In this document: positions 2,388 through 52,696 of the stretch, piece by piece
Layout of the letters: each line of letters begins with the position of its first letter
Numbering within the stretch: the stretch's first letter is position 1
Assembly: GCA_032718475.1 (NCBI GenBank)
Contig: JAUCBJ010008795.1
Span: forward strand, 162,026-226,025
DNA length: 64,000 nt
Origin: Nemertoderma westbladi
Lineage: Eukaryota > Animalia > Xenacoelomorpha
Direction of reading: 5' to 3'
Made by a program: the position numbers and the translations under genes
Notes under the pieces: generated by a model
The model's database searches: none
What the model was told of the DNA's origin: nothing
The model's input: only the letters and a program-made list of their open reading frames with translations

Positions 2388-2693
2388 TTATCTGAAAGTT
2401 TGTAATGTTTGTAATTCGCCAGTTTGGTTTCGGTTAGCTATGGTATTGTTGCGATTTAATCGCCGCTTCCTTCTGACTTTCTCTATGAAGGTTGTCAGCA
2501 GTGTGTAGGCTCTGTGCAGCGTAAGGAAGGCAGTACATATGACAGCGGCTGTAGTCCAAACTGAAGTCGCGTAGACCTCAATGATTTCGGTATACACCGC
2601 CGCGTTGAAGTTAACAAATATTTCAATCCTCGAAGCCCTGACCCCCGATGGAAATATCCTAGTACTGCTGTACATGTTCAGTATAGATTGAAT
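2388..2693 (-). CDS. PACC1: PAC/TMEM206-like channel, terminal coding exon (end of ectodomain, TM2, basic cytoplasmic tail)
   Basis: Acceptor tttcctttacag|ATT, phase 0. Translates IQSILNMY...IFVNFNAAVYTEIIEVYATSVWTTAAVICTAFLTLHRAY...KVRRKRR...*. WTTAAVICTAFLTLHRA aligns without gaps to recalled human PAC TM2 WNTIALLCGAFLALFKA. Confidence 0.85.
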   Translation of the reverse strand: MQSILNMYSSTRIFPSGVRASRIEIFVNFNAAVYTEIIEVYATSVWTTAAVICTAFLTLHRAYTLLTTFIEKVRRKRRLNRNNTIANRNQTGELQTLQTFR

Positions 2694-4380
2694 CTGTAAA
2701 GGAAATTATTACTTGCATTACTCATTTAATATAGTAAGTTTTGTACAAATTATTTGTAGTCACATCATAATATCATATTCAGATACTTTTGTTTTAACCA
2801 AGAAGAATGCTGAATTTTGCATACGGGACAATGATAACAGCACGCCATCATTATATTAACTGTGTGTAAGTTAGTTACCGAGAGAAAGCCGCCCCAATAT
2901 TAGATTATTACAACAACATATCCATTGGGTAAGAAAGTGGAGGAGAGCCAGCCCGTCTCTTAATTTTTTACTTTATATTACGCGATCAATTTTCACTCAT
3001 CTCGTCATGAACCCAACATGTATGTAACCTTTTGTTAAATTTGTTGGCTATGCGTTTGAGGTTGTTTGGGCGGAGTGTGGTAGGCCTACACTTTTCATAC
3101 TTAAATATTTTGGTTGTGAAATGTTACAGGGCATAGCGATCTGAGATATTTCATTTATATTTTATTATGAGAGGAAGAAGAACATACAACGTTATTTACT
3201 ATGTAACAAAATAATTGTTTTCGGGTTTAACTTGGAAGCCTCCCCAAATAGTTGATATACAATTATATTTAAAATTATTTCCATGGTCATGGTCATTCAC
3301 CCGTCTTTAGTTAGAAATTTGTTTGCATGAAAGACAGTTTAGTTTAGTTTTTACTGATTTATTATCTCTTATCTGACTGGGGTAATAATAAAGGATAGGA
3401 TAAATGGAAGCAAAGTGTGACAGTAACAAATATTTCCCCGTCACCCTAGCATGTCTTAAGTATATGATATATCAAAGGGGGAAGTTTGGATTCACTGCAT
3501 AAATGCAGTTCACCAAACTTCCCCCGAATGCACACTGTAACTTCCCCCTTCCCACAAATATCCACTGTTGAATTAATTTGAAGCGATATAATAAGTACAA
3601 AATTGTGCGAGTTTTTAATTGTGTGGTCCAATTGTTATTTGATTTCTATTTATTATTTAAAGTGCATTTAATATCACACTGGTTTTTAGAATATTATACT
3701 ATACAACCTTATGTTTTATTAATTTACCCAATCGAAGCCTCATAAGGGCCGGTTATTTGTACGCATATCCCCTAATGCGCTCAGTAAGGTTCAAACAACA
3801 TATTAATATGAAAATAAAGTATCTGCAAAGAAAATAACCCAATACTATATAATTTGACCTTATTAAAAAATTTGCACTTTTGCACACTTATTTGTACAAG
3901 TGCACTTTAGCAGATCGTAATGGTGGCTCTTATTTAACAAACTTATGTTTATCCTTTGCCGATCTACGATAGTGTATGATCAAGTGTCAGTCGCTAAAAG
4001 TGTCAAAAATCCAATTTAATAAATCTGGATTTGCGATTTTGGACCATATTCATGGACATTTTAAGTCACTTTATAGACATAAAAAGTTAAACAAATGTTA
4101 CGATTATAGTTAGAAATCATTCCAAACTACATTTTAATCCAAAAAATAACATTCTACGATGAATAGAACTGGAAATAATAGTGTTTGAAATATCGAAAAA
4201 ATGTTCACTATTTAAGTGCATTTTGCACTAAGTGCACATGCGTCTTTTCCCAAGTTGTATCCTATTTCACACACTACAATCTATTCTCTATCCAATGAAA
4301 AAAGTTTCAGATTAAACGGCCCTCTAGAACCGAAGTTATTTATGTTTAAAAATAGTCACTCGAAAATTTCAAATTCTATT

Positions 4381-4453
4381 GGTCACATAGTCTAGTGGTT
4401 ATCAATCACGTTAATGAAACCTAAGTTCGTGGGTTCGAAACCCAATATTGACC
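4381..4453 (+). pseudogene. tRNA-derived fragment (SINE-head-like or tRNA pseudogene)
   Basis: A-box-like TAGTCTAGTGG, B-box-like GGTTCGAAACC, partial acceptor stem ggtca/tgacc; anticodon arm does not fold cleanly. Confidence 0.45.
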
Positions 4454-5802
4454 TGACCATTCTTAATTTTTTTGCAAAAAAAATTATTTTTACTTTTTCA
4501 CTAAAATCGCTCTAACTTCGGTTCTGGTGGTCCAAATTCAATAAAATTGGTATATTCTTTGCCGTAATTTTTTTCTTAATCTTTTGAGAAGGGGTTATTT
4601 TTGGCCCCAAAAAAATTAAAAAAAAGGGCCAAAATAACGCGATATTTTTCGACCCTTAAAATTCGTAATTTTAATTATATATGTTAAGATAAAAGATAGC
4701 GGAGTTAATTTGATACTTTTTACAGGTACTTTTGGCGCAATACGCTAAATTATAATGGAATAGCGATTTGTTAAAAAAAAAAATTTTTCGTCCCTTTTTA
4801 TAAATATTATATTTCACACGATCGCCTGCCGCTCCAGTTTTATAATACCTCCAGCGCTGTGATTAACGCTGTTAGATAGATAATTTAACGCACTATAAGT
4901 CTGTGTAAACAAATCTCCCGTAAGTTAAGTAGTTTTCGAGCTAGACGATTTCCCGCGAAGCAAGTTTGAAGCGCAAAATTATAATTTTGGCCCTCATTTT
5001 TTAATATCATCCTTGGAGCAAAACCGATAGCATATTTGAATTCCCCGTATGGATATTGACTGTATAGAATGTACCTTAACCAACTAAAGTTAAAAATAAA
5101 AAATTATTCGATAAAAACTACTTTACAAATTCTGGCCCTTTTTGGCCCCTATTGCCGACATATTTTTTGTACCCCCATTCGATAGGAACGTAGCCCCAAT
5201 GGTCTTCTACGAGTTTCATAAAAGAATTAGTGGATTCCTACCCGCGTTGTCGAATTAAACATTTCAGAAATAAGTTTTCCAAAAAAGACGGACAAAAACG
5301 TACAAATTTACAGCCCCTTTTTCCACCCGAAATTTTAATAAATATCTTACCCCCATTCGATACGAAGGTAGTACCACTCTTCCCCTTTCCAACCGCGTTA
5401 CTTTCGTCCCCGTACGATTAATATTAGCCGAGTTATAGCCGATCCCGCAAAGTCATTTTGTCCGTTTTTTCAACTTTGACGGACATTTTCGGAAAAAAGG
5501 CGTGGTAATCTTTTTTGAAAAAAAAAACGAATTCACTAATTAATCCCTTCTATCGTATCCCGGCGTCGGCTAAGCAATAACCTAGGGTTTTTTCGAGCCA
5601 CTGTAGAGCGCCTTTCAAAAAAATTTTAAAATTGTCGAAAAAATGACGGTTTTTTGTCCGCCGTGTCCGTCGAAGGGTTATATTTCATAATGTTAGAGTT
5701 GCTAATATGTTAGAATTCCGAGCCGCTCCCCTGGTGAGAAAATAAAAAAATTTGGTCAGTTCCTTCATCGAAAAGTCCCCCAGAATCCCAAGTTAACCTA
5801 TA

Positions 5803-6204
5803 TAGTTAGCGAGGGCCTGCGGCTTTAGGAGCGGCCGCGGTATTCACCTCCCTCATAGCGGCCGCGGCGGTGTTGCGTCAAATGGAGAAATATTTATCCC
5901 ACCAAGCGAGTTAATGTAATGATTCACTCAAATGATTAATATTTATGTCGAATAAGGGTCTTGAGCATCGGCTATTATTGATAATAGCAGTGGCTTAAGA
6001 ACCGTACTCGTCATAAATATTAATTATTTAAGTTAGTTACACCATGGAACAATACCATGGTTATAAATACTCTAGGCTAAATTAGTTTTCACTATGAAAT
6101 GGAAATGAAAAAATATATAAAACAATCGGGGGAATAAGGTTGCCTTTTTATAATTACTTTCTTCTTATTTCCCGAGCAGGCGCATCAAGCAGGTCAATAA
6201 CTAG
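5803..6204 (+). mobile_element. Possible short non-autonomous Helitron-like element
   Basis: GC-rich 5' segment (gagggcctgcggctttaggagcggccgcgg) and a GC-rich subterminal segment followed by CTAG at ~6201-6204; no TIR or TSD seen. Confidence 0.3.
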
Positions 6205-6381
6205 ATATTAAATAAATAAAGTAGTTCATATAATGTACAATATTTAACAACATTTAATTGTATCAATATTTGCAATTATTACAAGAGGTTGATTAACCAC
6301 GAGGTTGATAATTGTGATTCTACCAAGATTCTGATGTGATCAAACTAATAGTTATAATGTTATTATACTCCTCCTCATTAA

Positions 6382-7607: not shown

Positions 7608-7614
7608 TTAATGG

Positions 7615-7810
7615 TAGACCTTCTCCATGCAGCTCAGTGGAACCTTTGCTGCTCTAGAGCTGCTCTAACTGAGAAGACGCCATGTCTCTGGATGAACGTT
7701 GCCTACGATGCACACATAAGCAATGATGTGTTATACAACTAAGGCAACATCTCATTGTCAAGACCCTCAACTAACTTCCTCAAACGCCTACTCAAGTACA
7801 CAGGACTTCT
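7615..7810 (+). mobile_element. Degenerate RTE-like LINE fragment (C-terminal region, divergent family)
   Basis: Translates ...NVAYDAHISNDVLYN... and KRLLKYTG, resembling CVKYNAHISNQTLYN...RLRFAG of the LINE at 1-1277. Confidence 0.55.
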
Positions 7811-8087
7811 GACTTCATCACGCCTACTCAAGTACACAGGACTTCTCAAGTACACAGGACTACTCAAATGCACATGACTACTGACTTCCTCACGCCTACT
7901 CAAGTACACAGGACTTCTGACTTCCTCAAACGCCACTCAAGTACACAGGACTTCTAACTTCCTCAAACGCCCACTCAAGTACACAGGACTTCTGACTTCA
8001 TCACGCCTACTCAAGTACACAGGACTTCTCAAGTACACTGTACTACTCAAGTACACAGGACTACTCAAGTACACAGGACTACTCAAG
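7775..8087. repeat. Irregular minisatellite built on CTACTCAAGTACACAGGA, with longer ~37-bp units
   Basis: Directly visible; the core equals the RLLKYTG-coding segment of the adjacent LINE fragment. Confidence 0.9.
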
Positions 8088-15434: not shown

Positions 15435-15570
15435 CTGAGCTTTTAAATTAGTCCGTTTTGCTGAGTTTATTTTATTCGCAACCTCTTTGGCTATGGTCAC
15501 CATGGCAGCACGACCTTTAGGGAGAAACCGTGTTACTGATAGGTTCTGCCGAATATATTCTTCTTGTAAC
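15435..15570 (-). CDS. PACC1: PAC/TMEM206-like channel, internal exon (136 nt, phase 2 to 0)
   Basis: ttattcttatttag|G ... GCTCAG|gttagt. Translates LQEEYIRQNLSVTRFLPKGRAAMVTIAKEVANKINSAKRTNLKAQ, colinear with human ...SSWKFSGGFRTWVKMSLVKTKEEDGREAVEFRQE. Phases fit both neighbouring exons. Confidence 0.8.
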
Positions 15571-15587: not shown

Positions 15588-18500
15588 AATACCTACAAAT
15601 ATATAGAGTCAGCTGGAACAATATGTGAATATCTTGAATAGAGATAGCTGGAACAATAAGTGAATATCTTGTATAGAGATAACTGGAACAATAAGATAAT
15701 ATCTACAATTTGTATAGAGATAGCTGGAACAATAAGTGAATAAAACTTGTATAAAGATAGCTGGAACAATAAGTGCCTATCTTGTATAGAGATAGCTGGA
15801 ACAATAAGATAATATCTACAATTTGTATAGAGATAGCTGGAACAATAAGTTAATAAAACTTGTGTAAAGATAGCTGGAACAATAAGTGCCTATCTTGTAT
15901 AGAGATAGCTGGAACAATACGTGAATACCTACAATTTGTATAGAGTTAGCTGGAACAATAAGTGAATACCTATAATTTGTATAGAGATAGCTGGAACAAT
16001 AAGTGAATAACTTGTATAGAGATAGCTGGAACAATAAGTGAATATCTTGTATAGAGATAGCTGGAACAATAAGTGAATATCTTGTATAGAGATAGCTGGA
16101 ATAATAATAAGTGAATATCTTGTATAGAGATAACTGGAACAATACGTGAATAACTACCATTTGTATAGAGATAGCTGGAACAATAAGTGAATAACTTGTA
16201 TAGAGATAGCTGGAACAATACGTGAATACCTACAATTTGTATAGAGATAGCTGGAACAATACGTGAATACCTACAATTTGTATAGAGATAGCTGGAACAA
16301 TAAGTGAATAACTTGTATAAAGATAGCTAGAATAATAAGTGAATATCTCGTATAGAGATAGCTGGAACAATTAATGAATATCTTGTATAGAGATAGCTGG
16401 AACAATAAGTGAATATCTTGTATAGAGAAAGCTGGAACAATAAGTGAATATCTTGTATAGAGATAGCTGGAACAATAAGTAAATATCTTGTATAGAGATA
16501 GCTGGAACAATAAGTGAATAACTTGTATAGAGATAGCTGGAACAATAAGTGAATATCTTGTATAGAGATAGCTGGAACAATAAGTGAATATCTTGCATAG
16601 AGATAGCTGGAACAATAAGTGAATAACTTGTATAGAGATAGCTGGAACAATAAGTGAATATCTTGTATAGAGATAGCTGGAACAATATGTGAATATCTTG
16701 TATAGAGTTAGCTGGAACAATAAGTGAATATCTTGTATAGATATATCTGGAACAATAAGTGAATATCTTGTATAGAGATAGCTGGAACAATAAGTTAATA
16801 ACTAGTATAGAGATAGCTGGAACAATAAGTGAATAACTAGTATAGAGATAGCTGGGACAATACGTGAATACCTACAATTTGTATAGAGATAGCTGGAACT
16901 ATAAGTGAATAACTTGTATAAAGATAGCTAGAACAATAAGTGAATATCTCGTATAGAGATAGCTGGAACAATAAGTGAATATCTTGTATAGAGATAGCTG
17001 GAACAATAAGTGACTATCTTGTATAGAGATAGCTGGAACAATAAGTGAATATCTTGTATAGAGATAGCTGGAACAATAAGTGAATATCTTGTATAGATAT
17101 AGCTGGAACAATAAGTGCATAACTTGTATAGAGATAGCTGGAACAATAAGTGAATATCTTGTATAGAGATAGCTGGAATAATAGGTGAATAACTAGTATA
17201 GAGATAGCTGGAACAATACGTGAATACCTACAATTTGTATAAAGATAGCTGGAACAATTAGTGAATAACTTGTATAGAGATAGCTGGTACAATACGTGAA
17301 TACCTACAATTTGTATAGAGATAGCTGGAACAATAAGCGAATAACTTGTATAAAGATAGCTAGAACAATAAGTGAATATCTTGTATAGAGATAGCTGGAA
17401 CAATAAGTGAATATCTTGTATAGAGATAGCTGGAACAATAAGTGCATAACTTGTATAGAGATAGCTGGAACAATAAGTGAATATCTTGTATAGAAATAGC
17501 TGGAACAATACGTGAATACCTACAATTTGTATAGAGATAACTGGAATAATAAGTGAATAACTTGTATAGAGATAGCTGGAACAATAAGTGAATATCTTGT
17601 ATAGAGATAACTGGAACAATAAGTGAATAACTAGTATAGAGATAGCTGGAACAATAAGTGAATAACTAGTATAGAGATAGCTGGGACAATACGTGAATAC
17701 CTACAATTTGTATAGAGATAGCTGGAACAATAAGTGAATATCTTGTATAGAGATAGCTGGAACAATAAGTGAATATCTTGTATAGAGATAGCTGAAACAA
17801 TAAGTGAATAACTTGTATAGAGATAGCTGGAACAATAAGTGAATATTTTGTATAGAGATAGCTGGAACAATAAGTGAATATCTTGTATAGAGATAGCTGG
17901 AACAATAAGTGAATATCTTGTATAGAGATAGCTGGAACAATAAATGCATAACTTGTATAGAGATAGCTGGAACATTAAGTGAATATCTTGTATAGAGATA
18001 GCTGGAACAATAAGTGAATAACTAGTATAGAGATAGCTGGGACAATACGTGAATACCTACAATTTGTATAGAGATAGCTGGAACAATAAGTGAATATCTT
18101 GTATAGAGATAGCTGGAACAATAAGTGAATAACTAGTATAGAGATAGCTGGAACAATATGTGAATACCTACAATTTGTATAGAGATAACTGGAATAAAAA
18201 GTGAATAACTTGTATAGAGATAACTGGCACAATAAGTGAATATCTTGTATAGAGATAACTGGAACAATAAGTGAATAACTAGTATAGAGATAGCTGGAAC
18301 AATAAGTGAATAACTTGTATAGAGATAGCTGGAACAATAAGTGAATATCTTGTATAGAGATAGCTGGAACAATAAGTGAATAACTAGTATAGAGATAGCT
18401 GGGACAATACGTGAATACCTACAATTTGTATAGAGATAGCTGGAACAATAAGTGAATAACTTGTATAGAGATAGCTGGAACAATAAGTGAATAACTAGTA

Positions 18501-21500
18501 TAGAGATAGCTGGGACAATACGTGAATACCTACAATTTGTATAGAGATAGCTGGAACAATAAGTGAATAACCTGTATAGAGATAGCTGGAACAATAAGTG
18601 AATAACTAGTATAGAGATGACTGGAACAATAAGTGAATAACTAGTATAGAGATAGCTGGAACAATAAGTGAATAACTTGTATAGAGATAGATGGAACAAT
18701 AAGTGAATATCTTGTATAGAGATAGCTGGAACAATAAGTGAATAACTTGTATAGAGATAGCTGGAACAATAAGTGAATATCTTGTATAGAGATAGCTGGA
18801 ACAATAAGTGAATATCTTGTATAGAGTTAGCTGGAACATAAGTGAATATCTTGGATAGAGATAGCTGGAACACTAAGTGAATATCTTGTATAGAGATAGC
18901 TGGAACAATAAGTGAATAACTAGTATAGAGATAGCTGGGACAATACGTGAATACCTACAATTTGTATAGAGATAGCTGGAACAATAAGTGAATATCTTGT
19001 ATAGAGATAGCTGGAACAATAAGTGAATAACTTGTATAGAGATAGCTGGAACAATAAGTGAATAACTAGTATAGAGATAGCTGGGACAATACGTGAATAC
19101 CTACAATTTGTATAGAGATAGCTGGAACAATAAGTGAATAACTTGTATAGAGATATCTGGAAAAATAAGTGAATATCTTGTATAGAGATAACTGGAACAA
19201 TAAGTGAATAACTAGTATAGAGATAGCTGGAACAAAAGTGAATAACTTGTATAGAGATAGCTGGAACAATAAGTGACTATCTTGTATAGAGATAGCTGGA
19301 ACAATAAGTGAATATCTAGTATAGAGATAGCTGGAACAATAAGTGAATAACTAGTATAGAGATAGCTGGGACAATACGTGAATACCTACAATTTGTATAG
19401 AGATAGCTGGAACAATAAGTGAATATCTTGTATAGAGATAGCTGGAACAATAAGTGAATAACTTGTATAGAGATAGCTGGAACAATAAGTGAATAACTAG
19501 TATAGAGATAGCTGGGACAATACGTGAATACCTACAATTTGTATAGAGATAGCTGGAACAATAAGTGAATAACTTGTATAGAGATATCTGGAAAAATAAG
19601 TGAATATCTTGTATAGAGATAACTGGAACAATAAGTGAATAACTAGTATAGAGATAGCTGGAACAAAAGTGAATAACTTGTATAGAGATAGCTGGAACAA
19701 TAAGTGACTATCTTGTATAGAGATAGCTGGAACAATAAGTGAATAACTAGTATAGAGATAGCTGGAACAATAAGTGAATATCTTGTATAGAGATAGCTGG
19801 AACAATAAGTGAATATCTTGTATAGAGATAGCTGGAACACTAAGTGAATAACTTGTATAGAGATAGCTGGAACAATAAGTGAATATCTTGTATAGAGATA
19901 GCTGGAACAATAAGTGAATAACTAGTATAGAGATAGCTGGAACAATAAGTGAATATCTTGTATAGAGATAGCTGGAACACTAAGTGAATATCTCGTATAT
20001 AGATAGCTGGAACAATAAGTGAATATCTTGTATAGAGATAGCTGGAACAATAAGTTAATATCTTGTATAGAGATAGCTGGAACAATAAGTGAATATCTTG
20101 CATAGAGATAGCTGGAACAATAAGTGAATAACTTGTATAGAGATAGCTGGAACAATAAGTGAATATCTTGTATAGAGATAGCTGGAACAATAAGTGAATA
20201 TCTTGTATAGAGTTAGCTGGAACAATAAGTGAATATCTTGTATAGAGATATCTGGAACAATAAGTGAATATCTTGTATAGAGATAGCTGGAACAATAAGT
20301 TAATAACTAGTATAGAGATAGCTGGAACAATAAGTGAATAACTAGTGTAGAGATAGCTGGGACAATACGTGAATACCTACAATTTGTATAGAGATAGCTG
20401 GAACAATAAGTGAATATCTTGAAGAGATAACTGGAACAATAAGTGAATAACTTGTATAGAAATAGCTGGAACAATAAGTGAATAACTAGTATAGAGATAG
20501 CTGGAACAATAAGTGAATATCTTGTATAGAGATAGCTGGAACAATAAGTGAATATCTTGTATAGAGTTAGCTGGAACAATAAGTGAATATCTTGTATAGA
20601 GATATCTGGAACAATAAGTGAATATCTTGTATAGAGATAGCTGGAACAATAAGTTAATAACTAGTATAGAGATAGCTGGAACAATAAGTGAATAACTAGT
20701 GTAGAGATAGCTGGGACAATACGTGAATACCTACAATTTGTATAGAGATAACTGGAATAAAAAGTGAATAACTTGTATAGAGATAACTGGCACAATAAGT
20801 GAATATCTTGTATAGAGATAACTGGAACAATAAGTGAATAACTAGTATAGAGATAGCTGGAACAATAAGTGAATAACTTGTATAGAGATAGCTGGAACAA
20901 TAAGTGAATATCTTGTATAGAGATAGCTGGAACAATAAGTGAATAACTAGTATAGAGATAGCTGGGACAATACGTGAATACCTACAATTTGTATAGAGAT
21001 AGCTGGAACAATAAGTGAATAACTTGTATAGAGATAGCTGGAACAATAAGTGAATAACTAGTATAGAGATAGCTGGGACAATACGTGAATACCTACAATT
21101 TGTATAGAGATAGCTGGAACAATAAGTGAATAACCTGTATAGAGATAGCTGGAACAATAAGTGTATAACTAGTATAGAGATAACTGGAACAATAAGTGAA
21201 TAACTAGTATAGAGATAGCTGGAACAATAAGTGAATAACTTGTATAGAGATAGCTGGAACAATAAGTGAATATCTTGTATAGAGATAGCTGGAACAATAA
21301 GTGAATAACTTGTATAGAGATAGCTGGAACAATAAGTGAATATCTTGTATAGAGATAGCTGGAACAATAAGTGAATATCTTGTATAGAGTTAGCTGGAAC
21401 ATAAGTGAATATCTTGGATAGAGATAGCTGGAACACTAAGTGAATATCTTGTATAGAGATAGCTGGAACAATAAGTGAATAACTAGTATAGAGATAGCTG

Positions 21501-33500: not shown

Positions 33501-36500
33501 TGGAACAATAAGTGAATATCTTGTATAGAGATAGCTGGGACAATAAGTGAGTAACTAGTATAGAGATAGCTGGAACAATAAGTGAATATCTTGCATAGAG
33601 ATAGCTGGAACAATAAGTGAATAACTTGTATAGAGATAGCTGGAACAATAAGTGAATATCTTGTATAGAGATATCTGGAACAATAAGTGAATATCTTGTA
33701 TAGAGATAGCTGGAACACTAAGTGAATATCTCGTATATAGATAGCTGGAACAATAAGTGAATATCTTGTATAGAGATAGCTGGAACAATACGTGAATATT
33801 TTGCATAGAGATAGCTGGAACAATAAGTGAATATCTTGTATAGAGATAGCTGGAACAATAAGTGACTATTTTGCTTAGAGATAGCTGGAACAATAAGTGA
33901 ATAACTTGTATAGAGATAGCTGGAACAATAAGTGAATATCTTGTATAGAGATAGCTGGAACACTAAGTGAATATCTCGTATATAGATAGCTGGAACAATA
34001 AGTGAATATCTTGTATAGAGATAGCTGGAACAATAAGTGAATATTTTGCATAGAGATAGCTGGAACAATAAGTGAATATCTTGTATAGAGATAGCTGGAA
34101 CAATAAGTGAATATTTTGCATAGAGATAGCTGGAACAATAAGTGAATAACTTGTATAGAGATAGCTGGAACAACAAGTGAATATCTTGTATAGAGATAGC
34201 TGGAACACTAAGTGAATATCTCGTATATAGATAGCTGGAACAATAAGTGAATATCTTGTATAGAGATAGCTGGAACAATAAGTGAATATTTTGCATAGAG
34301 ATAGCTGGAACAATAAGTGAATATCTTGTATAGAGATAGCTGGAACAATAAGTGCATAACTTGTATAGAGATAGCTGGAACAATAAGTGAATATTTTGCA
34401 TAGAGATAGCTGGAACAATAAATGAATATTTTGCATAGAGATAGCTGGAACAATAAGTGAATAACTTGTATAGAGATAGCTGGAACAATAAGTTAATATC
34501 TTGTATAGAGATAGCTGGAACACTAAGTGAATATCTCGTATATAGATAGCTGGAACAATAAGTGAATATCTTGTATAGAGATAGCTGGAACAATAAGTGA
34601 ATATTTTGCATAGAGATAGCTGGAACAATAAGTGAATATCTTGTATAGAGATAGCTGGAACACTAAGTGAATATCTCGTATAGAGATAGCTGGGACAATA
34701 AGTGAATAACTAGTATAGAGATAGCTGGAACAATAAGTGAATATCTTGCATAGAGATAGCTGGAACAATAAGTGAATAACTTGTATAGAGATAGCTGGAA
34801 CAATAAGTGAATATCTTGTATAGAGATATCTGGAACAATAAGTGAATATCTTGTATAGAGATAGCTGGAACACTAAGTGAATATCTCGTATATAGATAGC
34901 TGGAACAATAAGTGAATATTTTGCATAGAGATAGCTGGAACAATAAGTGAATATTTTGCATAGAGATAGCTGGAACAATAAGTGAATAACTTGTATAGAG
35001 ATAGCTGGAACAATAAGTGAATATCTTGTATAGAGATATCTGGAACAATAAGTGAATATCTTGTATAGAGATAGCTGGAACACTAAGTGAATATCTCGTA
35101 TATAGATAGCTGGAACAATAAGTGAATATCTTGTATAGAGATAGCTGGAACAATAAGTGAATATCTTGTATAGAGATAGCTGGAACAATAAGTGAATATC
35201 TTGTATAGAGATAGCTGGAACAATAAGTGAGTATCTTGTATAGAGATAGCTGGAACAATAAGTGAATATCTTGTATAAAGATAGCTGGAACAATAAATGC
35301 ATAACTTGTATAGAGATAGCTGGAACAATAAGTGAATATCTTGTATAGAGATAGCTGGGACAATAAGTGAATAACTAGTATAGAGATAGCTGGAACAATA
35401 AGTGAATATCTTGCATAGAGATAGCTGGAACAATAAGTGAATAACTTGTATAGAGATAGCTGGAACAATAAGTGAATATCTTGTATAGAGATATCTGGAA
35501 CAATAAGTGAATATCTTGTATAGAGATAGCTGGAACACTAAGTGAATATCTCGTATATAGATAGCTGGAACAATAAGTGAATATCTTGTATAGAGATAGA
35601 TGGAACAATAAGTGAATATTTTGCATAGAGATAGGGAACAATAAGTGAATATCTTGTATAGAGATAGCTGGAACAATAAGTGAATATTTTGCATAGAGAT
35701 AGCTGGAACAATAAGTGAATATCTTGTATAGAGATAGCTGGAACAATAAGTGCATAACTTGTATAGAGATAGCTGGAACAATAAGTGAATATTTTGCATA
35801 GAGATAGCTGGAACAATAAGTGAATAACTTGTATAGAGATAGCTGGAACAATAAGTGAATATCTTGTATAGAGATAGCTGGAACACTAAGTGAATATCTC
35901 GTATATAGATAGCTGGAACAATAAGTGAATATCTTGTATAGAGATAGCTGGAACAATAAGTGAATATTTTGCATAGAGATAGCTGGAACAATAAGTGAAT
36001 ATCTTGTATAGAGATAGCTGGAACACTAAGTGAATATCTCGTATAGAGATAGCTGGGACAATAAGTGAATAACTAGTATAGAGATAGCTGGAACAATAAG
36101 TGAATATCTTGCATAGAGATAGCTGGAACAATAAGTGAATAACTTGTATAGAGATAGCTGGAACAATAAGTGAATATCTTGTATAGAGATATCTGGAACA
36201 ATAAGTGAATATCTTGTATAGAGATAGCTGGAACACTAAGTGAATATCTCGTATATAGATAGCTGGAACAATAAGTGAATATTTTGCATAGAGATAGCTG
36301 GAACAATAAGTGAATATTTTGCATAGAGATAGCTGGAACAATAAGTGAATAACTTGTATAGAGATAGCTGGAACAATAAGTGAATATCTTGTATAGAGAT
36401 ATCTGGAACAATAAGTGAATATCTTGTATAGAGATAGCTGTAACACTAAGTGAATATCTCGTATATAGATAGCTGGAACAATAAGTGAATATCTTGTATA

Positions 36501-39500
36501 GAGATAGCTGGGACAATAAGTGAATATCTTGTATAGAGATAGCTGGAACAATAAGTGAATATCTTGTATAGAGATAGCTGGAACAATAAGTGAGTATCTT
36601 GTATAGAGATAGCTGGAACAATAAGTGAATATCTTGTATAAAGATAGCTGGAACAATAAATGCATAACTTGTATAGAGATAGCTGGAACAATAAGTGAAT
36701 ATCTTGTATAGAGATAGCTGGGACAATAAGTGAGTAACTAGTATAGAGATAGCTGGAACAATAAGTGAATATCTTGCATAGAGATAGCTGGAACAATAAG
36801 TGAATAACTTGTATAGAGATAGCTGGAACAATAAGTGAATATCTTGTATAGAGATATCTGGAACAATAAGTGAATATCTTGTATAGAGATAGCTGGAACA
36901 CTAAGTGAATATCTCGTATATAGATAGCTGGAACAATAAGTGAATATCTTGTATAGAGATAGCTGGAACAATACGTGAATATTTTGCATAGAGATAGCTG
37001 GAACAATAAGTGAATATCTTGTATAGAGATAGCTGGAACAATAAGTGACTATTTTGCTTAGAGATAGCTGGAACAATAAGTGAATAACTTGTATAGAGAT
37101 AGCTGGAACAATAAGTGAATATCTTGTATAGAGATAGCTGGAACACTAAGTGAATATCTCGTATATAGATAGCTGGAACAATAAGTGAATATCTTGTATA
37201 GAGATAGCTGGAACAATAAGTGAATATTTTGCATAGAGATAGCTGGAACAATAAGTGAATATCTTGTATAGAGATAGCTGGAACAATAAGTGAATATTTT
37301 GCATAGAGATAGCTGGAACAATAAGTGAATAACTTGTATAGAGATAGCTGGAACAACAAGTGAATATCTTGTATAGAGATAGCTGGAACACTAAGTGAAT
37401 ATCTCGTATATAGATAGCTGGAACAATAAGTGAATATCTTGTATAGAGATAGCTGGAACAATAAGTGAATATTTTGCATAGAGATAGCTGGAACAATAAG
37501 TGAATATCTTGTATAGAGATAGCTGGAACAATAAGTGCATAACTTGTATAGAGATAGCTGGAACAATAAGTGAATATTTTGCATAGAGATAGCTGGAACA
37601 ATAAATGAATATTTTGCATAGAGATAGCTGGAACAATAAGTGAATAACTTGTATAGAGATAGCTGGAACAATAAGTGAATATCTTGTATAGAGATAGCTG
37701 GAACACTAAGTGAATATCTCGTATATAGATAGCTGGAACAATAAGTGAATATCTTGTATAGAGATAGCTGGAACAATAAGTGAATATTTTGCATAGAGAT
37801 AGCTGGAACAATAAGTGAATATCTTGTATAGAGATAGCTGGAACACTAAGTGAATATCTCGTATAGAGATAGCTGGGACAATAAGTGAATAACTAGTATA
37901 GAGATAGCTGGAACAATAAGTGAATATCTTGCATAGAGATAGCTGGAACAATAAGTGAATAACTTGTATAGAGATAGCTGGAACAATAAGTGAATATCTT
38001 GTATAGAGATATCTGGAACAATAAGTGAATATCTTGTATAGAGATAGCTGGAACACTAAGTGAATATCTCGTATATAGATAGCTGGAACAATAAGTGAAT
38101 ATTTTGCATAGAGATAGCTGGAACAATAAGTGAATATTTTGCATAGAGATAGCTGGAACAATAAGTGAATAACTTGTATAGAGATAGCTGGAACAATAAG
38201 TGAATATCTTGTATAGAGATATCTGGAACAATAAGTGAATATCTTGTATAGAGATAGCTGGAACACTAAGTGAATATCTCGTATATAGATAGCTGGAACA
38301 ATAAGTGAATATCTTGTATAGAGATAGCTGGAACAATAAGTGAATATCTTGTATAGAGATAGCTGGAACAATAAGTGAATATCTTGTATAGAGATAGCTG
38401 GAACAATAAGTGAGTATCTTGTATAGAGATAGCTGGAACAATAAGTGAATATCTTGTATAAAGATAGCTGGAACAATAAATGCATAACTTGTATAGAGAT
38501 AGCTGGAACAATAAGTGAATATCTTGTATAGAGATAGCTGGGACAATAAGTGAATAACTAGTATAGAGATAGCTGGAACAATAAGTGAATATCTTGCATA
38601 GAGATAGCTGGAACAATAAGTGAATAACTTGTATAGAGATAGCTGGAACAATAAGTGAATATCTTGTATAGAGATATCTGGAACAATAAGTGAATATCTT
38701 GTATAGAGATAGCTGGAACACTAAGTGAATATCTCGTATATAGATAGCTGGAACAATAAGTGAATATCTTGTATAGAGATAGATGGAACAATAAGTGAAT
38801 ATTTTGCATAGAGATAGGGAACAATAAGTGAATATCTTGTATAGAGATAGCTGGAACAATAAGTGAATATTTTGCATAGAGATAGCTGGAACAATAAGTG
38901 AATAACTTGTATAGAGATAGCTGGAACACTAAGTGAATATCTCGTTTATAGATAGCTGGAACAATAAGTGAATATCTTGTATAGAGATAGCTGGAACAAT
39001 AAGTGAATATTTTGCATAGAGATAGCTGGAACAATAAGTGAATAACTTGTATAGAGATAGCTGGAACAATAAGTGAATATCTTGTATAGAGATAGCTGGA
39101 ACACTAAGTGAATATCTCGTATATAGATAGCTGGAACAATAAGTGAATATTTTGCATAGAGATAGCTGGAACAATAAGTGAATAACTTGTATAGAGATAG
39201 CTGGAACAATAAGTGAATATCTTGTATAGAGATAGCTGGAACACTAAGTGAATATCTCGTATATAGATAGCTGGAACAATAAGTGAATATCTTGTATAGA
39301 GATAGCTGGAACAATAAGTGAATATTTTGCATAGAGATAGCTGGAACAATAAGTGAATAACTTGTATAGAGATAGCTGGAACAATAAGTGAATATCTTGT
39401 ATAGAGATAGCTGGAACACTAAGTGAATATCTCGTATATAGATATCTGGAACAATAAGTGAATATCTTGTATAGAGATAGCTGGAACAATAAGTGAATAT

Positions 39501-42500
39501 CTTGTATAGAGATAGCTGGAACAATAAGTGAATATTTTGCATAGAGATAGCTGGAACAATAAGTGAATAACTTGTATAGAGATAGCTGGAACAATAAGTG
39601 AATATCTTGTATAGAGATAGCTGGAACACTACGTGAATATCTCGTATATAGATAGCTGGAACAATAAGTGAATATCTTGTATAGAGATAGCTGGAACAAT
39701 AAGTGAATATTTTGCATAGAGATAGCTGGAACAATAAGTGAATAACTTGTATAGAGAAGGCTGGAACAATAAGTGAATATCTTGTATAGAGATAGCTGGA
39801 ACACTAAGTGAATATCTCGTATATAGATAGCTGGAACAATAAGTGAATATTTTGCATAGAGATAGCTGGAACAATAAGTGAATAACTTGTATAGAGATAG
39901 CTGGAACAATAAGTGAATATCTTGTATAGAGATAGCTGGAACACTAAGTGAATATCTCGTATATAGATAGCTGGAACAATAAGTGAATATCTTGTATAGA
40001 GATAGCTGGAACAATAAGTGAATATCTTGTATAGAGATATCTGGAACAATAAGTGAATATCTTGCATAGAGATAGCTGGAACAATAAGTGAATAACTTGT
40101 ATAGAGATAGCTGGAACAATAAGTGAATATCTTGTATAGAGATAGCTGGAACAATAAGTGAATATCTTGTATAGAGATAGCTGGAACAATAAGTGAATAT
40201 CTTGTATAGAGATAGCTGGAACAATAAGTGAATATTTTGCATAGAGATAGCTGGAACAATAAGTGAATAACTTGTATAGAGATAGCTGGAACAATAAGTG
40301 AATATCTTGTATAGAGATAGCTGGAACACTAAGTGAATATCTCGTATATAGATAGCTGGAACAATAAGTGAATATCTTGTATAGAGATAGCTGGAACAAT
40401 AAGTGAATATCTTGTATAGAGATATCTGGAACAATAAGTGAATATCTTGCATAGAGATAGCTGGAACAATAAGTGAATAACTTGTATAGAGATAGCTGGA
40501 ACAATAAGTGAATATCTTGTGTAGAGATAGCTGGAACAATAAGTGAATATCTTGTATAGAGATAGCTGGAACAATAAGTGAATATCTTGTATAGAGATAG
40601 CTGGAACAATAAGTGAATATTTTGCATAGAGATAGCTGGAACAATAAGTGAATAACTTGTATAGAGATAGCTGGAACAATAAGTGAATATCTTGTATAGA
40701 GATAGCTGGAACACTAAGTGAATATCTCGTATATAGATATCTGGAACAATAAGTGAATATCTTGTATAGAGATAGCTGGAACAATAAGTGAATATCTTGT
40801 ATAGAGATAGCTGGAACAATAAGTGAATATTTTGCATAGAGATAGCTGGAACAATAAGTGAATAACTTGTATAGAGATAGCTGGAACAATAAGTGAATAT
40901 CTTGTATAGAGATAGCTGGAACACTACGTGAATATCTCGTATATAGATAGCTGGAACAATAAGTGAATATCTTGTATAGAGATAGCTGGAACAATAAGTG
41001 AATATTTTGCATAGAGATAGCTGGAACAATAAGTGAATAACTTGTATAGAGAAGGCTGGAACAATAAGTGAATATCTCGTATATAGATATCTGGAACAAT
41101 AAGTGAATATCTTGAATAGAGATAGCTGGAACACTAAGTGAATATCTCGTATATAGATAGCTGGAACAATAAGTGAATATTTTGCATAGAGATAGCTGGA
41201 ACAATAAGTGAATATTTTGCATAGAGATAGCTGGAACAATAAGTGAATAACTTGTATAGAGATAGCTGGAACAATAAGTGAATATCTTGTATAGAGATAT
41301 CTGGAACAATAAGTGAATATCTTGTATAGAGATAGCTGGAACACTAAGTGAATATCTCGTATATAGATAGCTGGAACAATAAGTGAATATCTTGTATAGA
41401 GATAGCTGGAACAATAAGTGAATATTTTGCATAGAGATAGCTGGAACAATAAGTGAATATCTTGTATAGAGATAGCTGGAACAATAAGTGAATATTTTGC
41501 ATAGAGATAGCTGGAACAATAAGTGAATATTTTGCATAGAGATAGCTGGAATAATAAGTGAATAACTTGTATAGAGATAGCTGGAACAATAAGTGAATAT
41601 CTTGTATAGAGATAGCTGGAACACTAAGTGAATATCTCGTATATAGATAGCTGGAACAATAAGTGAATATCTTGTATAGAGATAGCTGAACAATAAGTGA
41701 ATATTTTGCATAGAGATAGCTGGAACAATAAGTGAATAACTTGTATAGAGATAGCTGGAACAATAAGTGAATATCTTGTATAGAGATAGCTGGAACACTA
41801 AGTGAATATCTCGTATATAGATAGCTGGAACAATAAGTGAATATCTTGTATAGAGATAACTGGAACAATAAGTGAATATTTTGCATAGAGATAGCTGGAA
41901 CAATAAGTGAATATCTTGTATAGAGATAGCTGGAACACTAAGTGAATATCTCGTATATAGATAGCTGGAACAATAAGTGAATATCTTGTATAGAGATAGC
42001 TGGAACAATAAGTGAATATTTTGCATAGAGATAGCTGGAACAATAAGTGAATAACTTGTATAGAGATAGCTGGAACAATAAGTGAATATCTTGTATAGAG
42101 ATAGCTGGAACACTAAGTGAATATCTCGTATATAGATAGCTGGAACAATAAGTGAATATCTTGTATAGAGATAGCTGGAACAATAAGTGAATATTTTGCA
42201 TAGAGATAGCTGGAACAATAAGTGAATATTTTGCATAGAGATAGCTGGAACAATAAGTGAATAACTTGTATAGAGATAGCTGGAACAATAAGTGAATATC
42301 TTGTATAGGGATAGCTGGAACACTAAGTGAATATCTCGTTTATAGATAGCTGGAACAATAAGTGAATATCTTGTATAGAGATAGCTGGAACAATAAGTGA
42401 ATATTTTGCATAGAGATAGCTGGAACAATAAGTGAATAACTTGTATAGAGATAGCTGGAACAATAAGTGAATATCTTGTATAGAGATAGCTGGAACACTA

Positions 42501-45500
42501 AGTGAATATCTCGTATATAGATAGCTGGAACAATAAGTGAATATTTTGCATAGAGATAGCTGGAACAATAAGTGAATAACTTGTATAGAGATAGCTGGAA
42601 CAATAAGTGAATATCTTGTATAGAGATAGCTGGAACACTAAGTGAATATCTCGTATATAGATAGCTGGAACAATAAGTGAATATCTTGTATAGAGATAGC
42701 TGGAACAATAAGTGAATATTTTGCATAGAGATAGCTGGAACAATAAGTGAATAACTTGTATAGAGATAGCTGGAACAATAAGTGAATATCTTGTATAGAG
42801 ATAGCTGGAACACTAAGTGAATATCTCGTATATAGATATCTGGAACAATAAGTGAATATCTTGTATAGAGATAGCTGGAACAATAAGTGAATATCTTGTA
42901 TAGAGATAGCTGGAACAATAAGTGAATATTTTGCATAGAGATAGCTGGAACAATAAGTGAATAACTTGTATAGAGATAGCTGGAACAATAAGTGAATATC
43001 TTGTATAGAGATAGCTGGAACACTACGTGAATATCTCGTATATAGATAGCTGGAACAATAAGTGAATATCTTGTATAGAGATAGCTGGAACAATAAGTGA
43101 ATATTTTGCATAGAGATAGCTGGAACAATAAGTGAATAACTTGTATAGAGAAGGCTGGAACAATAAGTGAATATCTTGTATAGAGATAGCTGGAACACTA
43201 AGTGAATATCTCGTATATAGATAGCTGGAACAATAAGTGAATATTTTGCATAGAGATAGCTGGAACAATAAGTGAATAACTTGTATAGAGATAGCTGGAA
43301 CATTAAGTGAATATCTTGTATAGAGATAGCTGGAACACTAAGTGAATATCTCGTATATAGATAGCTGGAACAATAAGTGAATATCTTGTATAGAGATAGC
43401 TGGAACAATAAGTGAATATTTTGCATAGAGATAGCTGGAACAATAAGTGAATAACTTGTATAGAGATAGCTGGAACAATAAGTGAATATCTTGTATAGAG
43501 ATAGCTGGAACACTAAGTGAATATCTCGTATATAGATAGCTGGAACAATAAGTGAATATCTTGTATAGAGATAGCTGGAACAATAAGTGAATATTTTGCA
43601 TAGAGATAGCTGGAACAATAAGTGAATATCTTGTATAGAGATAGCTGGAACAATAAGTGAATATCTTGTATAGAGATAGCTGGAACAATAAGTGAATATT
43701 TTGCATAGAGATAGCTGGAACAATAAGTGAATAACTTGTATAGAGAAGGCTGGAACAATAAGTGAATATCTCGTATATAGATATCTGGAACAATAAGTGA
43801 ATATCTTGTATAGAGATAGCTGGAACACTAAGTGAATATCTCGTATATAGATAGCTGGAACAATAAGTGAATATTTTGCATAGAGATAGCTGGAACAATA
43901 AGTGAATATTTTGCATAGAGATAGCTGGAACAATAAGTGAATAACTTGTATAGAGATAGCTGGAACAATAAGTGAATATCTTGTATAGAGATATCTGGAA
44001 CAATAAGTGAATATCTTGTATAGAGATAGCTGGAACACTAAGTGAATATCTCGTATATAGATAGCTGGAACAATAAGTGAATATCTTGTATAGAGATAGC
44101 TGGAACAATAAGTGAATATTTTGCATAGAGATAGCTGGAACAATAAGTGAATATCTTGTATAGAGATAGCTGGAACAATAAGTGAATATTTTGCATAGAG
44201 ATAGCTGGAACAATAAGTGAATATTTTGCATAGAGATAGCTGGAATAATAAGTGAATAACTTGTATAGAGATAGCTGGAACAATAAGTGAATATCTTGTA
44301 TAGAGATAGCTGGAACACTAAGTGAATATCTCGTATATAGATAGCTGGAACAATAAGTGAATATCTTGTATAGAGATAGCTGAACAATAAGTGAATATTT
44401 TGCATAGAGATAGCTGGAACAATAAGTGAATAACTTGTATAGAGATAGCTGGAACAATAAGTGAATATCTTGTATAGAGATAGCTGGAACACTAAGTGAA
44501 TATCTCGTATATAGATAGCTGGAACAATAAGTGAATATCTTGTATAGAGATAACTGGAACAATAAGTGAATATTTTGCATAGAGATAGCTGGAACAATAA
44601 GTGAATATCTTGTATAGAGATAGCTGGAACACTAAGTGAATATCTCGTATATAGATAGCTGGAACAATAAGTGAATATCTTGTATAGAGATAGCTGGAAC
44701 AATAAGTGAATATTTTGCATAGAGATAGCTGGAACAATAAGTGAATAACTTGTATAGAGATAGCTGGAACAATAAGTGAATATCTTGTATAGAGATAGCT
44801 GGAACACTAAGTGAATATCTCGTATATAGATAGCTGGAACAATAAGTGAATATCTTGTATAGAGATAGCTGGAACAATAAGTGAATATTTTGCATAGAGA
44901 TAGCTGGAACAATAAGTGAATATTTTGCATAGAGATAGCTGGAACAATAAGTGAATAACTTGTATAGAGATAGCTGGAACAATAAGTGAATATCTTGTAT
45001 AGGGATAGCTGGAACACTAAGTGAATATCTCGTTTATAGATAGCTGGAACAATAAGTGAATATCTTGTATAGAGATAGCTGGAACAATAAGTGAATATTT
45101 TGCATAGAGATAGCTGGAACAATAAGTGAATAACTTGTATAGAGATAGCTGGAACAATAAGTGAATATCTTGTATAGAGATAGCTGGAACACTAAGTGAA
45201 TATCTCGTATATAGATAGCTGGAACAATAAGTGAATATTTTGCATAGAGATAGCTGGAACAATAAGTGAATAACTTGTATAGAGATAGCTGGAACAATAA
45301 GTGAATATCTTGTATAGAGATAGCTGGAACACTAAGTGAATATCTCGTATATAGATAGCTGGAACAATAAGTGAATATCTTGTATAGAGATAGCTGGAAC
45401 AATAAGTGAATATTTTGCATAGAGATAGCTGGAACAATAAGTGAATAACTTGTATAGAGATAGCTGGAACAATAAGTGAATATCTTGTATAGAGATAGCT

Positions 45501-46586
45501 GGAACACTAAGTGAATATCTCGTATATAGATATCTGGAACAATAAGTGAATATCTTGTATAGAGATAGCTGGAACAATAAGTGAATATCTTGTATAGAGA
45601 TAGCTGGAACAATAAGTGAATATTTTGCATAGAGATAGCTGGAACAATAAGTGAATAACTTGTATAGAGATAGCTGGAACAATAAGTGAATATCTTGTAT
45701 AGAGATAGCTGGAACACTACGTGAATATCTCGTATATAGATAGCTGGAACAATAAGTGAATATCTTGTATAGAGATAGCTGGAACAATAAGTGAATATTT
45801 TGCATAGAGATAGCTGGAACAATAAGTGAATAACTTGTATAGAGAAGGCTGGAACAATAAGTGAATATCTTGTATAGAGATAGCTGGAACACTAAGTGAA
45901 TATCTCGTATATAGATAGCTGGAACAATAAGTGAATATTTTGCATAGAGATAGCTGGAACAATAAGTGAATAACTTGTATAGAGATAGCTGGAACATTAA
46001 GTGAATATCTTGTATAGAGATAGCTGGAACACTAAGTGAATATCTCGTATATAGATAGCTGGAACAATAAGTGAATATCTTGTATAGAGATAGCTGGAAC
46101 AATAAGTGAATATTTTGCATAGAGATAGCTGGAACAATAAGTGAATAACTTGTATAGAGATAGCTGGAACAATAAGTGAATATCTTGTATAGAGATAGCT
46201 GGAACACTAAGTGAATATCTCGTATATAGATAGCTGGAACAATAAGTGAATATCTTGTATAGAGATAGCTGGAACAATAAGTGAATATTTTGCATAGAGA
46301 TAGCTGGAACAATAAGTGAATATCTTGTATAGAGATAGCTGGAACAATAAGTGAATGTCTTGTATAGAGATAGCTGGAACAATAAGTGAATAACTAGTAT
46401 AGAGATAGCTGGAACAATAAGTGAATATCTTGTATAGAGATAGCTGGAACAATAAGTGAATACCTTGTATAGAGATAGCTGGAACAATAAGTGAATAACT
46501 TGTATAGAGATAGCTGGAACAATAAGTGAATATCTTGTATAGACATGGCTGGAACAATACGTGAATACCTACAATTTGTATAGAGA
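15588..46586. repeat. 35-bp satellite array (~31 kb, roughly 880 monomers), intronic
   Basis: Consensus ATAGAGATAGCTGGAACAATAAGTGAATATCTTGT; 41-bp variant ...ACGTGAATACCTACAATTTGT; recurrent diagnostic variants and kb-scale duplications. Confidence 0.99.
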
Positions 46587-48317: not shown

Positions 48318-48326
48318 AAAAGTGCT

Positions 48327-49897: not shown

Positions 49898-50172
49898 TAG
49901 GTCCGCGTAGCGAGACCTCTAGTATTCACTCCGTTAGTAGGTCCGCGTAGCGAGACCTCTAGTATTCACTCCGTTAGTAGGTCCGCGTAGCGAGACCTCT
50001 AGTATTCACTCCGTTAGTAGGTCCGCGTAGCGAGACCTCTAGTATTCACTCCGTTAGTAGGTCCGCGTAGCGAGACCTCTAGTATTCACTCCGTTAGTAG
50101 GTCCGCGTAGCGAGACCTCTAGTATTCACTCCGTTAGTAGGTCCGCGTAGCGAGACCTCTAGTATTCACTCC
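49898..50172. repeat. 40-bp tandem repeat, ~7 identical copies
   Basis: Unit TAGGTCCGCGTAGCGAGACCTCTAGTATTCACTCCGTTAG with an AGGTC...GACCT hairpin. Confidence 0.96.
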
Positions 50173-51443: not shown

Positions 51444-51598
51444 TTAGGTTTACCCTCCAAGTTAAAATAATCATCATAGTTCGGCAAGACACGAAAGGCT
51501 ACCCAATCAAATCGTTCGTCTGTTTGTTCCAAGTCTATCATCGCGGTTTGTTCGTTGTTGGCTTCTTGTGGTCCGCGGATTGCAGTCACCGGCAACGA
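51444..51598 (-). CDS. PACC1: PAC/TMEM206-like channel, internal exon (155 nt, phase 0 to 2)
   Basis: ttttttctcttttag|TCG ... CCTAA|gtaagt. Translates SLPVTAIRGPQEANNEQTAMIDLEQTDERFDWVAFRVLPNYDDYFNLEGKP versus human KSALIVQGPREVKKRELVFLQFRLNKSSEDFSAIDYLLFSSFQEFLQS. Confidence 0.85.
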
Positions 51599-51684
51599 CT
51601 AAAAGAGAAAAAATAAAAACGAGATATATCTTTACAGACTTCAGGTCTTTTTATTCTTTCTCTTTAATATCTTACTGTATATGT

Positions 51685-52177
51685 AGACCCAATGTCCCTC
51701 ATGCTACAGTTCTCCTGTGCGTCTGACTAACCTGATTGGGCGAGAATAACCCCACAGGAGACCCAATGTCCCTCATGCTACAACAGTTCTCCTGTGCGTT
51801 CTGACTAACCTGATTGGGCGAGAATAACCCCACAGGAGACCCAATGTCCCTCATGCTACAACAGTTCTCCTGTGCGTTCTGACTAACCTGATTGGGCGAG
51901 AATAACCCCACAGGAGACCCAATGTCCCTCATGCTACAGTTCTCATGTGCGTTCTGACTAACCTGATTGGGCGAGAATAACCCCACAGGAGACCCAAAGT
52001 CCCTCATGCTACAGTTCTCCTGTGCGTCTGACTAACCTGATTGGGCGAGAATAACCCCACAGGAAACCCAATGTCCCTCATGCTACATACAGTTCTCCTG
52101 TGCGTCTGACTAACCTGATTTGGCGAGAATAACCCCACAGGAGACCCAATGTCCCTCATGCTACAGTTCTCCTGTGC
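51685..52177. repeat. 74-78-bp minisatellite (~6.5 copies) derived from an exon 3' end plus its splice donor
   Basis: On the minus strand each unit reads ...TGTAGCATGAGGGACATTGGGTCTCCTGTGGGGTTATTCTCGCC(C/A)AATCAG|GTTAGTCAG; the first copy is the exon end. Confidence 0.95.
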
Positions 52178-52260
52178 CGTTTTTCCAACCGTCTCTTCAT
52201 TACTCAGATACGTCATTTTACAACTAATTATCTTCCAATGATTGAGAGCAACAAGAAGTA
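52115..52260 (-). CDS. PACC1: PAC/TMEM206-like channel, internal exon (146 nt, phase 1 to 0) with both ectodomain cysteines
   Basis: tattatttttag|TA ... AATCAG|gttagt. Translates LLVALNHWKIISCKMTYLSNEETVGKTAQENCSMRDIGSPVGLFSPNQ versus human IALYPGQAQLLSCKHHY...DMNCTTQRINYTDPFSNQ. Confidence 0.85.
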
Positions 52261-52640
52261 CTAAAAATAATACAATATACACAGAGATTATAAAATCCAA
52301 GTATCTTTAATGTAACTTTATCCACGGTCGGTCGGTAACACACTTGGTAAATTTAGAACACACATTTATTTCTCCTTTGTTAACTCGGGACATAATATTA
52401 GTCGTGCCATGCCGTGAATAATTGTAGTAGTTACTTTAATAATAATTACATTGAGAATGACATGTTTGGAGATACTGGCGTTTTCAATATTACAGTTCCA
52501 TCAAGTAGGCCTACTAATTTGGATAATTGCACCGAATAAGAATGACACTTGAGAAAATTATCATTGGTGCTGGCACGATAGAAGGAAAATATCTGTAAGT
52601 AATTCGTATGCAACCACCATGATGATAAGTATTAGCAAAC

Positions 52641-52696
52641 CTGCCTTTGGGATGTCGCCTTTATCACTATTTTCATATTCATACACTTGGTTTATT
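52641..52696 (-). CDS. PACC1: PAC/TMEM206-like channel, upstream exon (5' boundary tentative)
   Basis: INQVYEYENSDKGDIPKA versus human VMSVSYKEVDRYDAPG; donor GCAG|gtttgc is phase 1 and fits the next exon. The acceptor at 52697 is plausible, but the frame stays open to ~52880. Confidence 0.5.

What the first reader, a model, noticed from the sequence alone, without database searches (positions are those of the whole stretch)
2388..52696. Hidden, apparently intact PAC/TMEM206-like proton-activated chloride channel gene spread over 50 kb of repeats
Seen: five minus-strand exons with canonical GT-AG sites and matching phases (1, 0, 2, 0) across introns of 380, 516, 35,873 and 12,741 bp give ~265 stop-free codons. 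Known: PAC is a trimeric two-TM anion channel characterised in vertebrates. Its landmarks appear here in the right order: SCK..Y and NC (C128/C149 disulfide pair), the GP.E motif, G.R (R237 region), TM2 W.T.A..C.AFL.L.(K/R)A, and a basic tail. Inference: this is a divergent PAC homologue in what looks like an invertebrate genome, where I know of little functional work on the family. The alignment was done by eye from the recalled human sequence.
Basis: partly seen in the sequence, partly recalled or inferred. Interest (0 to 1): 0.9.

Follow-up and report, generated by a model that had tools for sequence, protein, structure and literature searches.

The report
Diverged PAC chloride-channel gene, broken front

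Summary
The five exons, intron sizes, phases and 265 open codons are as stated. PAC/TMEM206 homology is real. The spliced product scores 49 bits against a profile of annelid and nemertean PACs and aligns colinearly. Exon 5 links through P0001 to Pfam TMEM206. 'Intact' is not supported. Exon 1 adds no significant homology and has a weak donor. It runs into TGA TAA with no usable donor before them. The protein is 22-24% identical to spiralian PACs, which are 57-70% identical to each other. It keeps the TM2 pore (K319 as R) but differs at H130, E181, R237, E257, E261, D269 and K288, which the spiralian PACs keep. That loss does not exceed the general divergence (p=0.81). Invertebrate PACs are already annotated in databases. 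Splicing was untestable: no RNA holder was listed. The scan's earlier notes hold only fungal and protist PAC-fold proteins, not this gene.

The parts
2388..2693 (-). Last coding exon: end of ectodomain, TM2 pore helix (W304, C311, L315, K319 as R), basic tail, TAA
   Evidence: Pfam TMEM206 E=0.021, only hit; P0001 E=1.8e-7 among 1.84 billion proteins; 32 bits in the six-frame scan
15435..15570 (-). Exon 4 (human about 218-261); phase 2 to phase 0; its 3' intron sits at the same aligned position as in L001 and L002
   Evidence: 9 of 200 shuffles; rank 1 of 875, narrow margin, strong donor
15602..46567 (.). 31-kb array of a 35-bp satellite with higher-order periods; fills most of intron 3 and ends 32 nt from the exon 4 acceptor
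51444..51598 (-). Exon 3 (RGP motif; E181 column holds Q); phase 0 to phase 2
   Evidence: second-best six-frame hit to the profile; 0 of 200 shuffles
51685..52177 (-). 6.5 tandem copies (74-78 nt) of the 3' half of exon 2 plus its donor; five extra donors at 52036 (in frame, +26 aa), 51962, 51887, 51809 and 51731 (these four include a stop)
52115..52260 (-). Exon 2 (Cys matching C128 and C149); phase 1 to phase 0
   Evidence: 2 of 200 shuffles; rank 3 of 497 candidates; Cys lies 13 codons after the phase-1 split codon, as in spiralian PACs
52585..52647 (-).
   Evidence: rank 1 of 18,978 and 1 of 23,817 windows; Markov null 0-3 of 500, column-shuffle null 0-11 of 200; BLASTP to P0018 E=0.013; not seen by Pfam
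52558..52563 (-). TGA TAA in the TM1 frame, 10 codons after the Asp of the TM1 motif; no usable donor before them
52641..52881 (-).

Best explanation
This is a strongly diverged gene of the PAC/TMEM206 family, likely a young pseudogene, whose product is predicted to have been a trimeric anion channel opened by something other than PAC's acid-sensing residues. Shown: exons 2-5 are open, have strong splice signals and match the PAC ectodomain and TM2 in order. The pore keeps W304, C311, L315 and a basic residue at 319, while H130, E181, R237, E257, E261, D269 and K288 are replaced. Inferred: anion selectivity (K-to-R at this site keeps function in pufferfish PAC); loss of PAC-type acid gating (the matching substitutions kill or shift human PAC); long purifying selection (open frames and intact splice sites at 22-24% identity); and one recent lesion just after TM1 that cut the link to exon 2. 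As assembled, a transcript either stops after TM1 or, through the weak 52640 donor, skips TM1. Neither gives a two-helix subunit.
For: Family: (49.3 bits). Intron 4 position and phase match L001 and L002. Pore and gating columns in three alignments. K320R retains function (bioRxiv 2020.11.05.369835, passages). E181Q, E257Q/A and E261Q/A are dead or nearly dead, H130A is dead and K288 changes lower pH sensitivity (PMC9351481, passages). The ectodomain holds 1 His against 7-8 in three spiralian PACs. The TM1 candidate ranks first in the window and lies just upstream of exon 2. Donors before the stop score -6 or worse against 4.4-4.6. The phase-1 donors 20 and 26 codons after the Asp (24 expected) lie beyond both stops and are weak.
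Against: The TM1 match is modest. Column sets were chosen after the segment was seen, the column-shuffle null reached the score in up to 11 of 200, an 11.7-kb Markov null in up to 9 of 60, and Pfam does not see it. Only about 12 hydrophobic residues precede its Tyr, against about 18-20 in homologues. Adding it does not raise the profile score. Exons 2-5 carry no lesion in 247 codons, which needs a very recent single event. Charged invariant residues are not lost more than others (8 of 25 kept against 25 of 71, p=0.81), so sensor loss may simply be divergence and new sensors could exist. G312 is Thr, at the helix crossing, and could close the pore. My donor scores use approximate textbook frequencies (recalled).
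Confidence: 0.48

Rival explanations
1. The gene is intact and expressed. The real TM1 exon lies beyond base 64000, is joined by an unusual splice, or the break is an assembly error. The product is a PAC-fold anion channel with a different gate (ligand, constitutive, or accessory subunit of a canonical PAC).
For: Exons 2-5 are flawless, with strong donors. Introns here reach 12.7 and 35.9 kb, so an exon more than 11 kb upstream is plausible. The TM1 match is only moderately significant.
Against: A TM1-like segment at the expected place by chance has p of about 0.002-0.05. No better TM1/beta1 exon was found in the 11.7 kb upstream. One-base-slip models need donors scoring -4.3 or worse among the best-aligning paths.
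Confidence: 0.37
2. One reading: an intact, ordinary proton-activated chloride channel, the species' single PAC orthologue on a long branch.
For: TMEM206 is usually single-copy, and the hemichordate protein also shows 'marked sequence divergence' (PMC6663466, passages). The pore residues and Cys pair are kept.
Against: 7 of 7 checked gating residues differ, although the named spiralian PACs keep them. There is no TM1 in the chain. The end branch is 7.2 against a median of 0.14.
Confidence: 0.11
3. Only the last exon is PAC-derived; the other 'exons' are chance open frames, or the gene belongs to ENaC/DEG or P2X.
For: Exons 2-4 alone give no Pfam or PAC hit. Exon 4 leads by only 0.4 bits.
Against: Exons 2-4 score 10.1 bits against a maximum of 5.4 in 300 shuffles; exon 3 is reached by 0 of 200 shuffles. 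Order and phases are colinear. No ENaC or P2X chain appears at E up to 10.
Confidence: 0.04

Closest known systems
Spiralian PAC-like proteins: Tubulanus XP_074645017.1, Lineus XP_064632728.1, Owenia CAH1783881.1, Capitella ELU13614.1, Lamellibrachia KAI0220511.1, Ridgeia KAK2173466.1
   Same: Colinear ectodomain and TM2; Cys pair, RGP, the L-H-K/R end of TM2; same phase-0 intron before the last ectodomain strands.
   Different: 22-24% identity against 57-70% among themselves. They keep E181, R237, E/D257, E261, D/E269 and the EWK motif, and have a normal TM1-beta1 segment.
Unnamed last-exon fragments P0001, P0019, P0030, P0031
   Same: Share the AY[ST]L[LI] motif after TM2; P0001 is the nearest sequence (34-35%).
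   Different: They keep the EWK motif. The grouping may be long-branch attraction. Hosts are unnamed.
Human PAC/ASOR/TMEM206 (PDB 7JNA; Pfam PF15122)
   Same: W304, T306, C311, A313, F314, L315, L317 and a basic residue at 319; G173/P174; C128/C149 columns.
   Different: H130, H131, E181, R237, E257, E261, D269 and K288 replaced; I307 is A, G312 is T, F318 is H; TM1-beta1 link absent as assembled.
Saccoglossus TMEM206-like (PMC6663466)
   Same: A divergent invertebrate homologue.
   Different: Not compared here (sequence not obtained). It was ER-retained and gave no current.

Membership tests
TMEM206/PAC (PF15122), by descent | Significant similarity to the family profile | tested here: met
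   Spliced product 49.3 bits against a six-member profile. Exon 5 alone has 14.4 bits, under Pfam's cut-off of 27, but links to P0001, which has 44.8 bits. The joined protein could not be run against Pfam itself.
TMEM206/PAC (PF15122), by descent | Colinear beta-rich ectodomain with the Cys pair, followed by TM2 | tested here: met
TMEM206/PAC (PF15122), by descent | Two transmembrane helices in one reading frame | tested here: inconclusive
   TM2 is present. A TM1 candidate exists but has no usable splice path to exon 2; an exon outside the window cannot be excluded.
Functional proton-activated chloride channel | Basic selectivity-filter residue at 319 | tested here: met
   R in 3 of 3 alignments; K-to-R is functional in pufferfish
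Functional proton-activated chloride channel | pH-sensing and transducing residues H130, E181, E257, E261, D269, K288, R237 | tested here: not met
   0 of 7 kept; H130 unaligned in 1 of 3 alignments and D269 gapped in 2 of 3; H98 region not identifiable
Functional proton-activated chloride channel | Homotrimer and acid-evoked outwardly rectifying Cl- current | not testable with these tools
   Only single exons could be folded; both models were one long helix
ENaC/DEG or P2X | Profile hit to these families | tested here: not met
   None in Pfam for exons 2-5 or in PDB at E up to 10

The most novel reading that the evidence does not exclude
An intact, expressed paralogue of PAC, a gene held to be single-copy, that kept the anion pore but swapped proton gating for another stimulus: a non-acid-gated PAC-fold chloride channel, spliced across a 31-kb satellite full of acceptor-like sites.
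Probability: 0.2. Interest if true: 0.75.

Novelty: new variant of a known kind. Interest (0 to 1): 0.42.

Why it matters
PAC is described as a single gene of vertebrates and a hemichordate, with 'no homologs in simpler animals' (PMC6663466). This locus shows that the family also produced far-diverged copies that keep the pore and lose the known gating residues. If a full-length form exists, it is a natural test of which parts make PAC acid-gated. If the gene is broken, its value is mainly evolutionary. A side result may be more useful: annelid and nemertean PACs are close to the human channel (E=2e-53) and keep most gating residues. They are ready candidates for a first recording of an invertebrate PAC current; my searches listed no paper on them.

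Tried and rejected
No genome is held, so paralogy and host taxon are untested. No RNA holder was listed. Runs X1-X3 are contigs of guessed type; X1 covers intron DNA, and no joint at a predicted junction was listed. Word-based protein searches with exon 5 and with P0001 found no longer relatives. The Atlas gave no usable hit for exon 5 and was unreachable twice. Both AlphaFold models of exon 5 were a single helix, so no fold search was run. Rejected as TM1: the hydrophobic read-through just upstream of exon 2 (polypyrimidine tract; it would delete two strands), the stretch at 52881-52813 (spacing far too long) and the stretch at 52467 (rank 3, no donor). The idea that proton sensors were lost selectively is not supported (p=0.81). 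No Rfam match. Botulinum heavy-chain rows (E about 0.7) are chance-level. A paper search for the C128-C149 disulfide gave no passage, so that bond is recalled. Supplementary alignments of the cited papers were not seen and may include invertebrate sequences.
Full report
OBSERVATION. Intron 3 is mostly a 35-bp satellite, 15602-46567. No genome is held, so the host is unknown. That it is an invertebrate animal is an inference from the introns, the repeats and the nearest homologues.

FAMILY. Exon 5 alone gives one Pfam hit, TMEM206, below the cut-off (E=0.021). PAC chains top the PDB list, at a non-significant E of 0.38. Among 1.84 billion representatives it finds one protein, P0001 (E=1.8e-7), which is a clear TMEM206 fragment (44.8 bits; PAC structures E=4e-9). 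From there I fetched two genomic loci and 31 proteins. Six of these are near-full-length proteins from four annelids and two nemerteans; four are already named PAC or PAC-like by a source. The spliced product scores 49.3 bits against their profile and aligns in order over positions 47-295 of 304; against a cleaned profile it scores 44.4 bits, where 300 full shuffles reached 8.1 at most. Exons 3 and 5 are firmly supported (0 of 200 shuffles each), exon 2 well (2 of 200), exon 4 modestly (9 of 200; rank 1 of 875 by 0.4 bits) and exon 1 not at all (22 of 200). Intron 4 has the same phase and aligned position as in L001 and L002. Intron 3 has the same phase as in L002 but lies about five codons away in a variable loop. 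L002 has an extra intron within TM2. The phase-1 intron before exon 2 leaves 13 codons to the first Cys, as in the spiralian proteins; their intron position is inferred from where two gene models leave the family alignment. No ENaC/DEG or P2X hit appeared.

THE 5' END. Its first donor scores 0.1 against 4.4-4.6 for the others (approximate recalled frequencies), and exon 1 ranks 257 of 893 against the TM1/beta1 block. The frame of exon 1 runs on past that donor into the best TM1-like stretch of the non-satellite window, 52647-52585 (rank 1 of 18,978 and 1 of 23,817). Nulls for four column sets: 0-3 of 500 Markov sequences of 640 nt, 0-9 of 60 of 11.7 kb, and 0-11 of 200 column shuffles. The columns were chosen after the segment was seen, Pfam does not detect it and it does not raise the profile score, so the support is moderate. 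Ten codons after its Asp come TGA TAA. The three GT/GC sites before the stops score -6 to -8. Phase-1 donors at about the expected distance (20 and 26 codons, against 24) lie beyond the stops and are weak. No better TM1 exon was found in the 11.7 kb upstream. As assembled, no plausible splice path gives a two-helix protein. Either the exon is broken (real or an assembly error) or the true one lies outside the window.

WHAT THE PROTEIN WOULD DO. Human numbering was carried over through P0021, which matches human PAC at E=2e-53, in three alignments. Kept: C128, G173, P174, G235, W304, C311, L315, and R at 319; R also occurs there in annelid PACs. K320R is functional in pufferfish PAC (bioRxiv 2020.11.05.369835, passages), and K319E/Q turn the human channel cationic (PMC10529583, passages). 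Anion selectivity is therefore predicted. Replaced: H130 (M or T), E181 (Q), R237 (A), E257 (N), E261 (Q), D269 (S or gap) and K288 (N). The five named spiralian proteins in that table keep E181, R237, E/D257, E261, D/E269 and K288, and the three clean models keep H130. In human PAC, H130A, E181Q and E257/E261 substitutions are dead or nearly so, and K288 changes lower pH sensitivity (PMC9351481, passages). R237A shifts gating. So PAC-type acid gating cannot be inferred and is likely lost. Two results count against over-reading this. Charged invariant residues are not lost more than others (8 of 25 against 25 of 71, p=0.81), and the whole protein is only 22-24% identical to proteins that are 57-70% identical to each other, on an end branch of 7.2 against a median of 0.14. 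G312, the helix-crossing glycine, is Thr. Open frames and strong splice sites at such divergence imply long selection for a protein (inference).

KNOWN AND NEW. The 2019 paper (PMC6663466, passages) reports orthologues in vertebrates and Saccoglossus only and no paralogues; the hemichordate protein was ER-retained. Database annotation has since named spiralian PACs, so 'PAC in an invertebrate' is not new. My searches (listings only, plus passages of PMC11059273 and PMC12714832) showed no paper on protostome PAC or on a PAC paralogue. The library lacks most subscription papers, and supplements were not seen. What is new is a very diverged copy with the pore kept, the gating residues replaced and a doubtful front end. 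Whether it is a paralogue or a fast-evolving sole orthologue could not be tested. Earlier scan notes concern fungal and protist PAC/ASIC-fold proteins (unchecked); none covers this genome.

VERDICT. PAC-family descent about 0.95. Young pseudogene of a non-acid-gated variant 0.48; intact variant with another gate 0.37; ordinary acid-gated PAC 0.11; chance or other family 0.04. Interest 0.42.

Noticed in passing
window 15602-46567: The 31-kb satellite carries 703 copies of an acceptor-like TTGTTCCAG and 46 AGGT on the gene's sense strand, but no GTRAG donor; higher-order periods include 1928, 2132, 2694 and 3183 nt. It recalls satellite-filled giant introns in Drosophila (PMC6508621, search listing only).
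   Followed up: partly
window 51685-52177: A young tandem repeat (94% matches) copies the end of exon 2 with its donor. The second donor would add 26 residues in frame with a second copy of the C149-matching Cys; the later four include a stop.
   Followed up: partly
P0016-P0018, P0020, P0021, P0024: Annelid and nemertean PACs are close to human PAC and keep most gating residues, but have Gly at the I307 column; no paper on them was listed in my searches.
   Followed up: partly
L002:2697-2869 and 3241 onward: This PAC gene has an extra phase-2 intron at the end of TM2 that L001 and the window lack.
   Followed up: no
window 74-1234 (+), with related fragments near 13800, 15100-15400 and 58100-59400: LINE-type reverse transcriptase fragment (RVT_1 E=2.5e-8, DUF6451), antisense to the gene.
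   Followed up: no
window 7784-8086, 10452-11220, 48346-49506, 49898-50172, 56646-57007, 59661-61136, 61284-61466: Further minisatellites and dispersed repeats of 15-147 nt units. C-rich sites near 53150 and 62930 draw very high depth in runs X1-X3.
   Followed up: no
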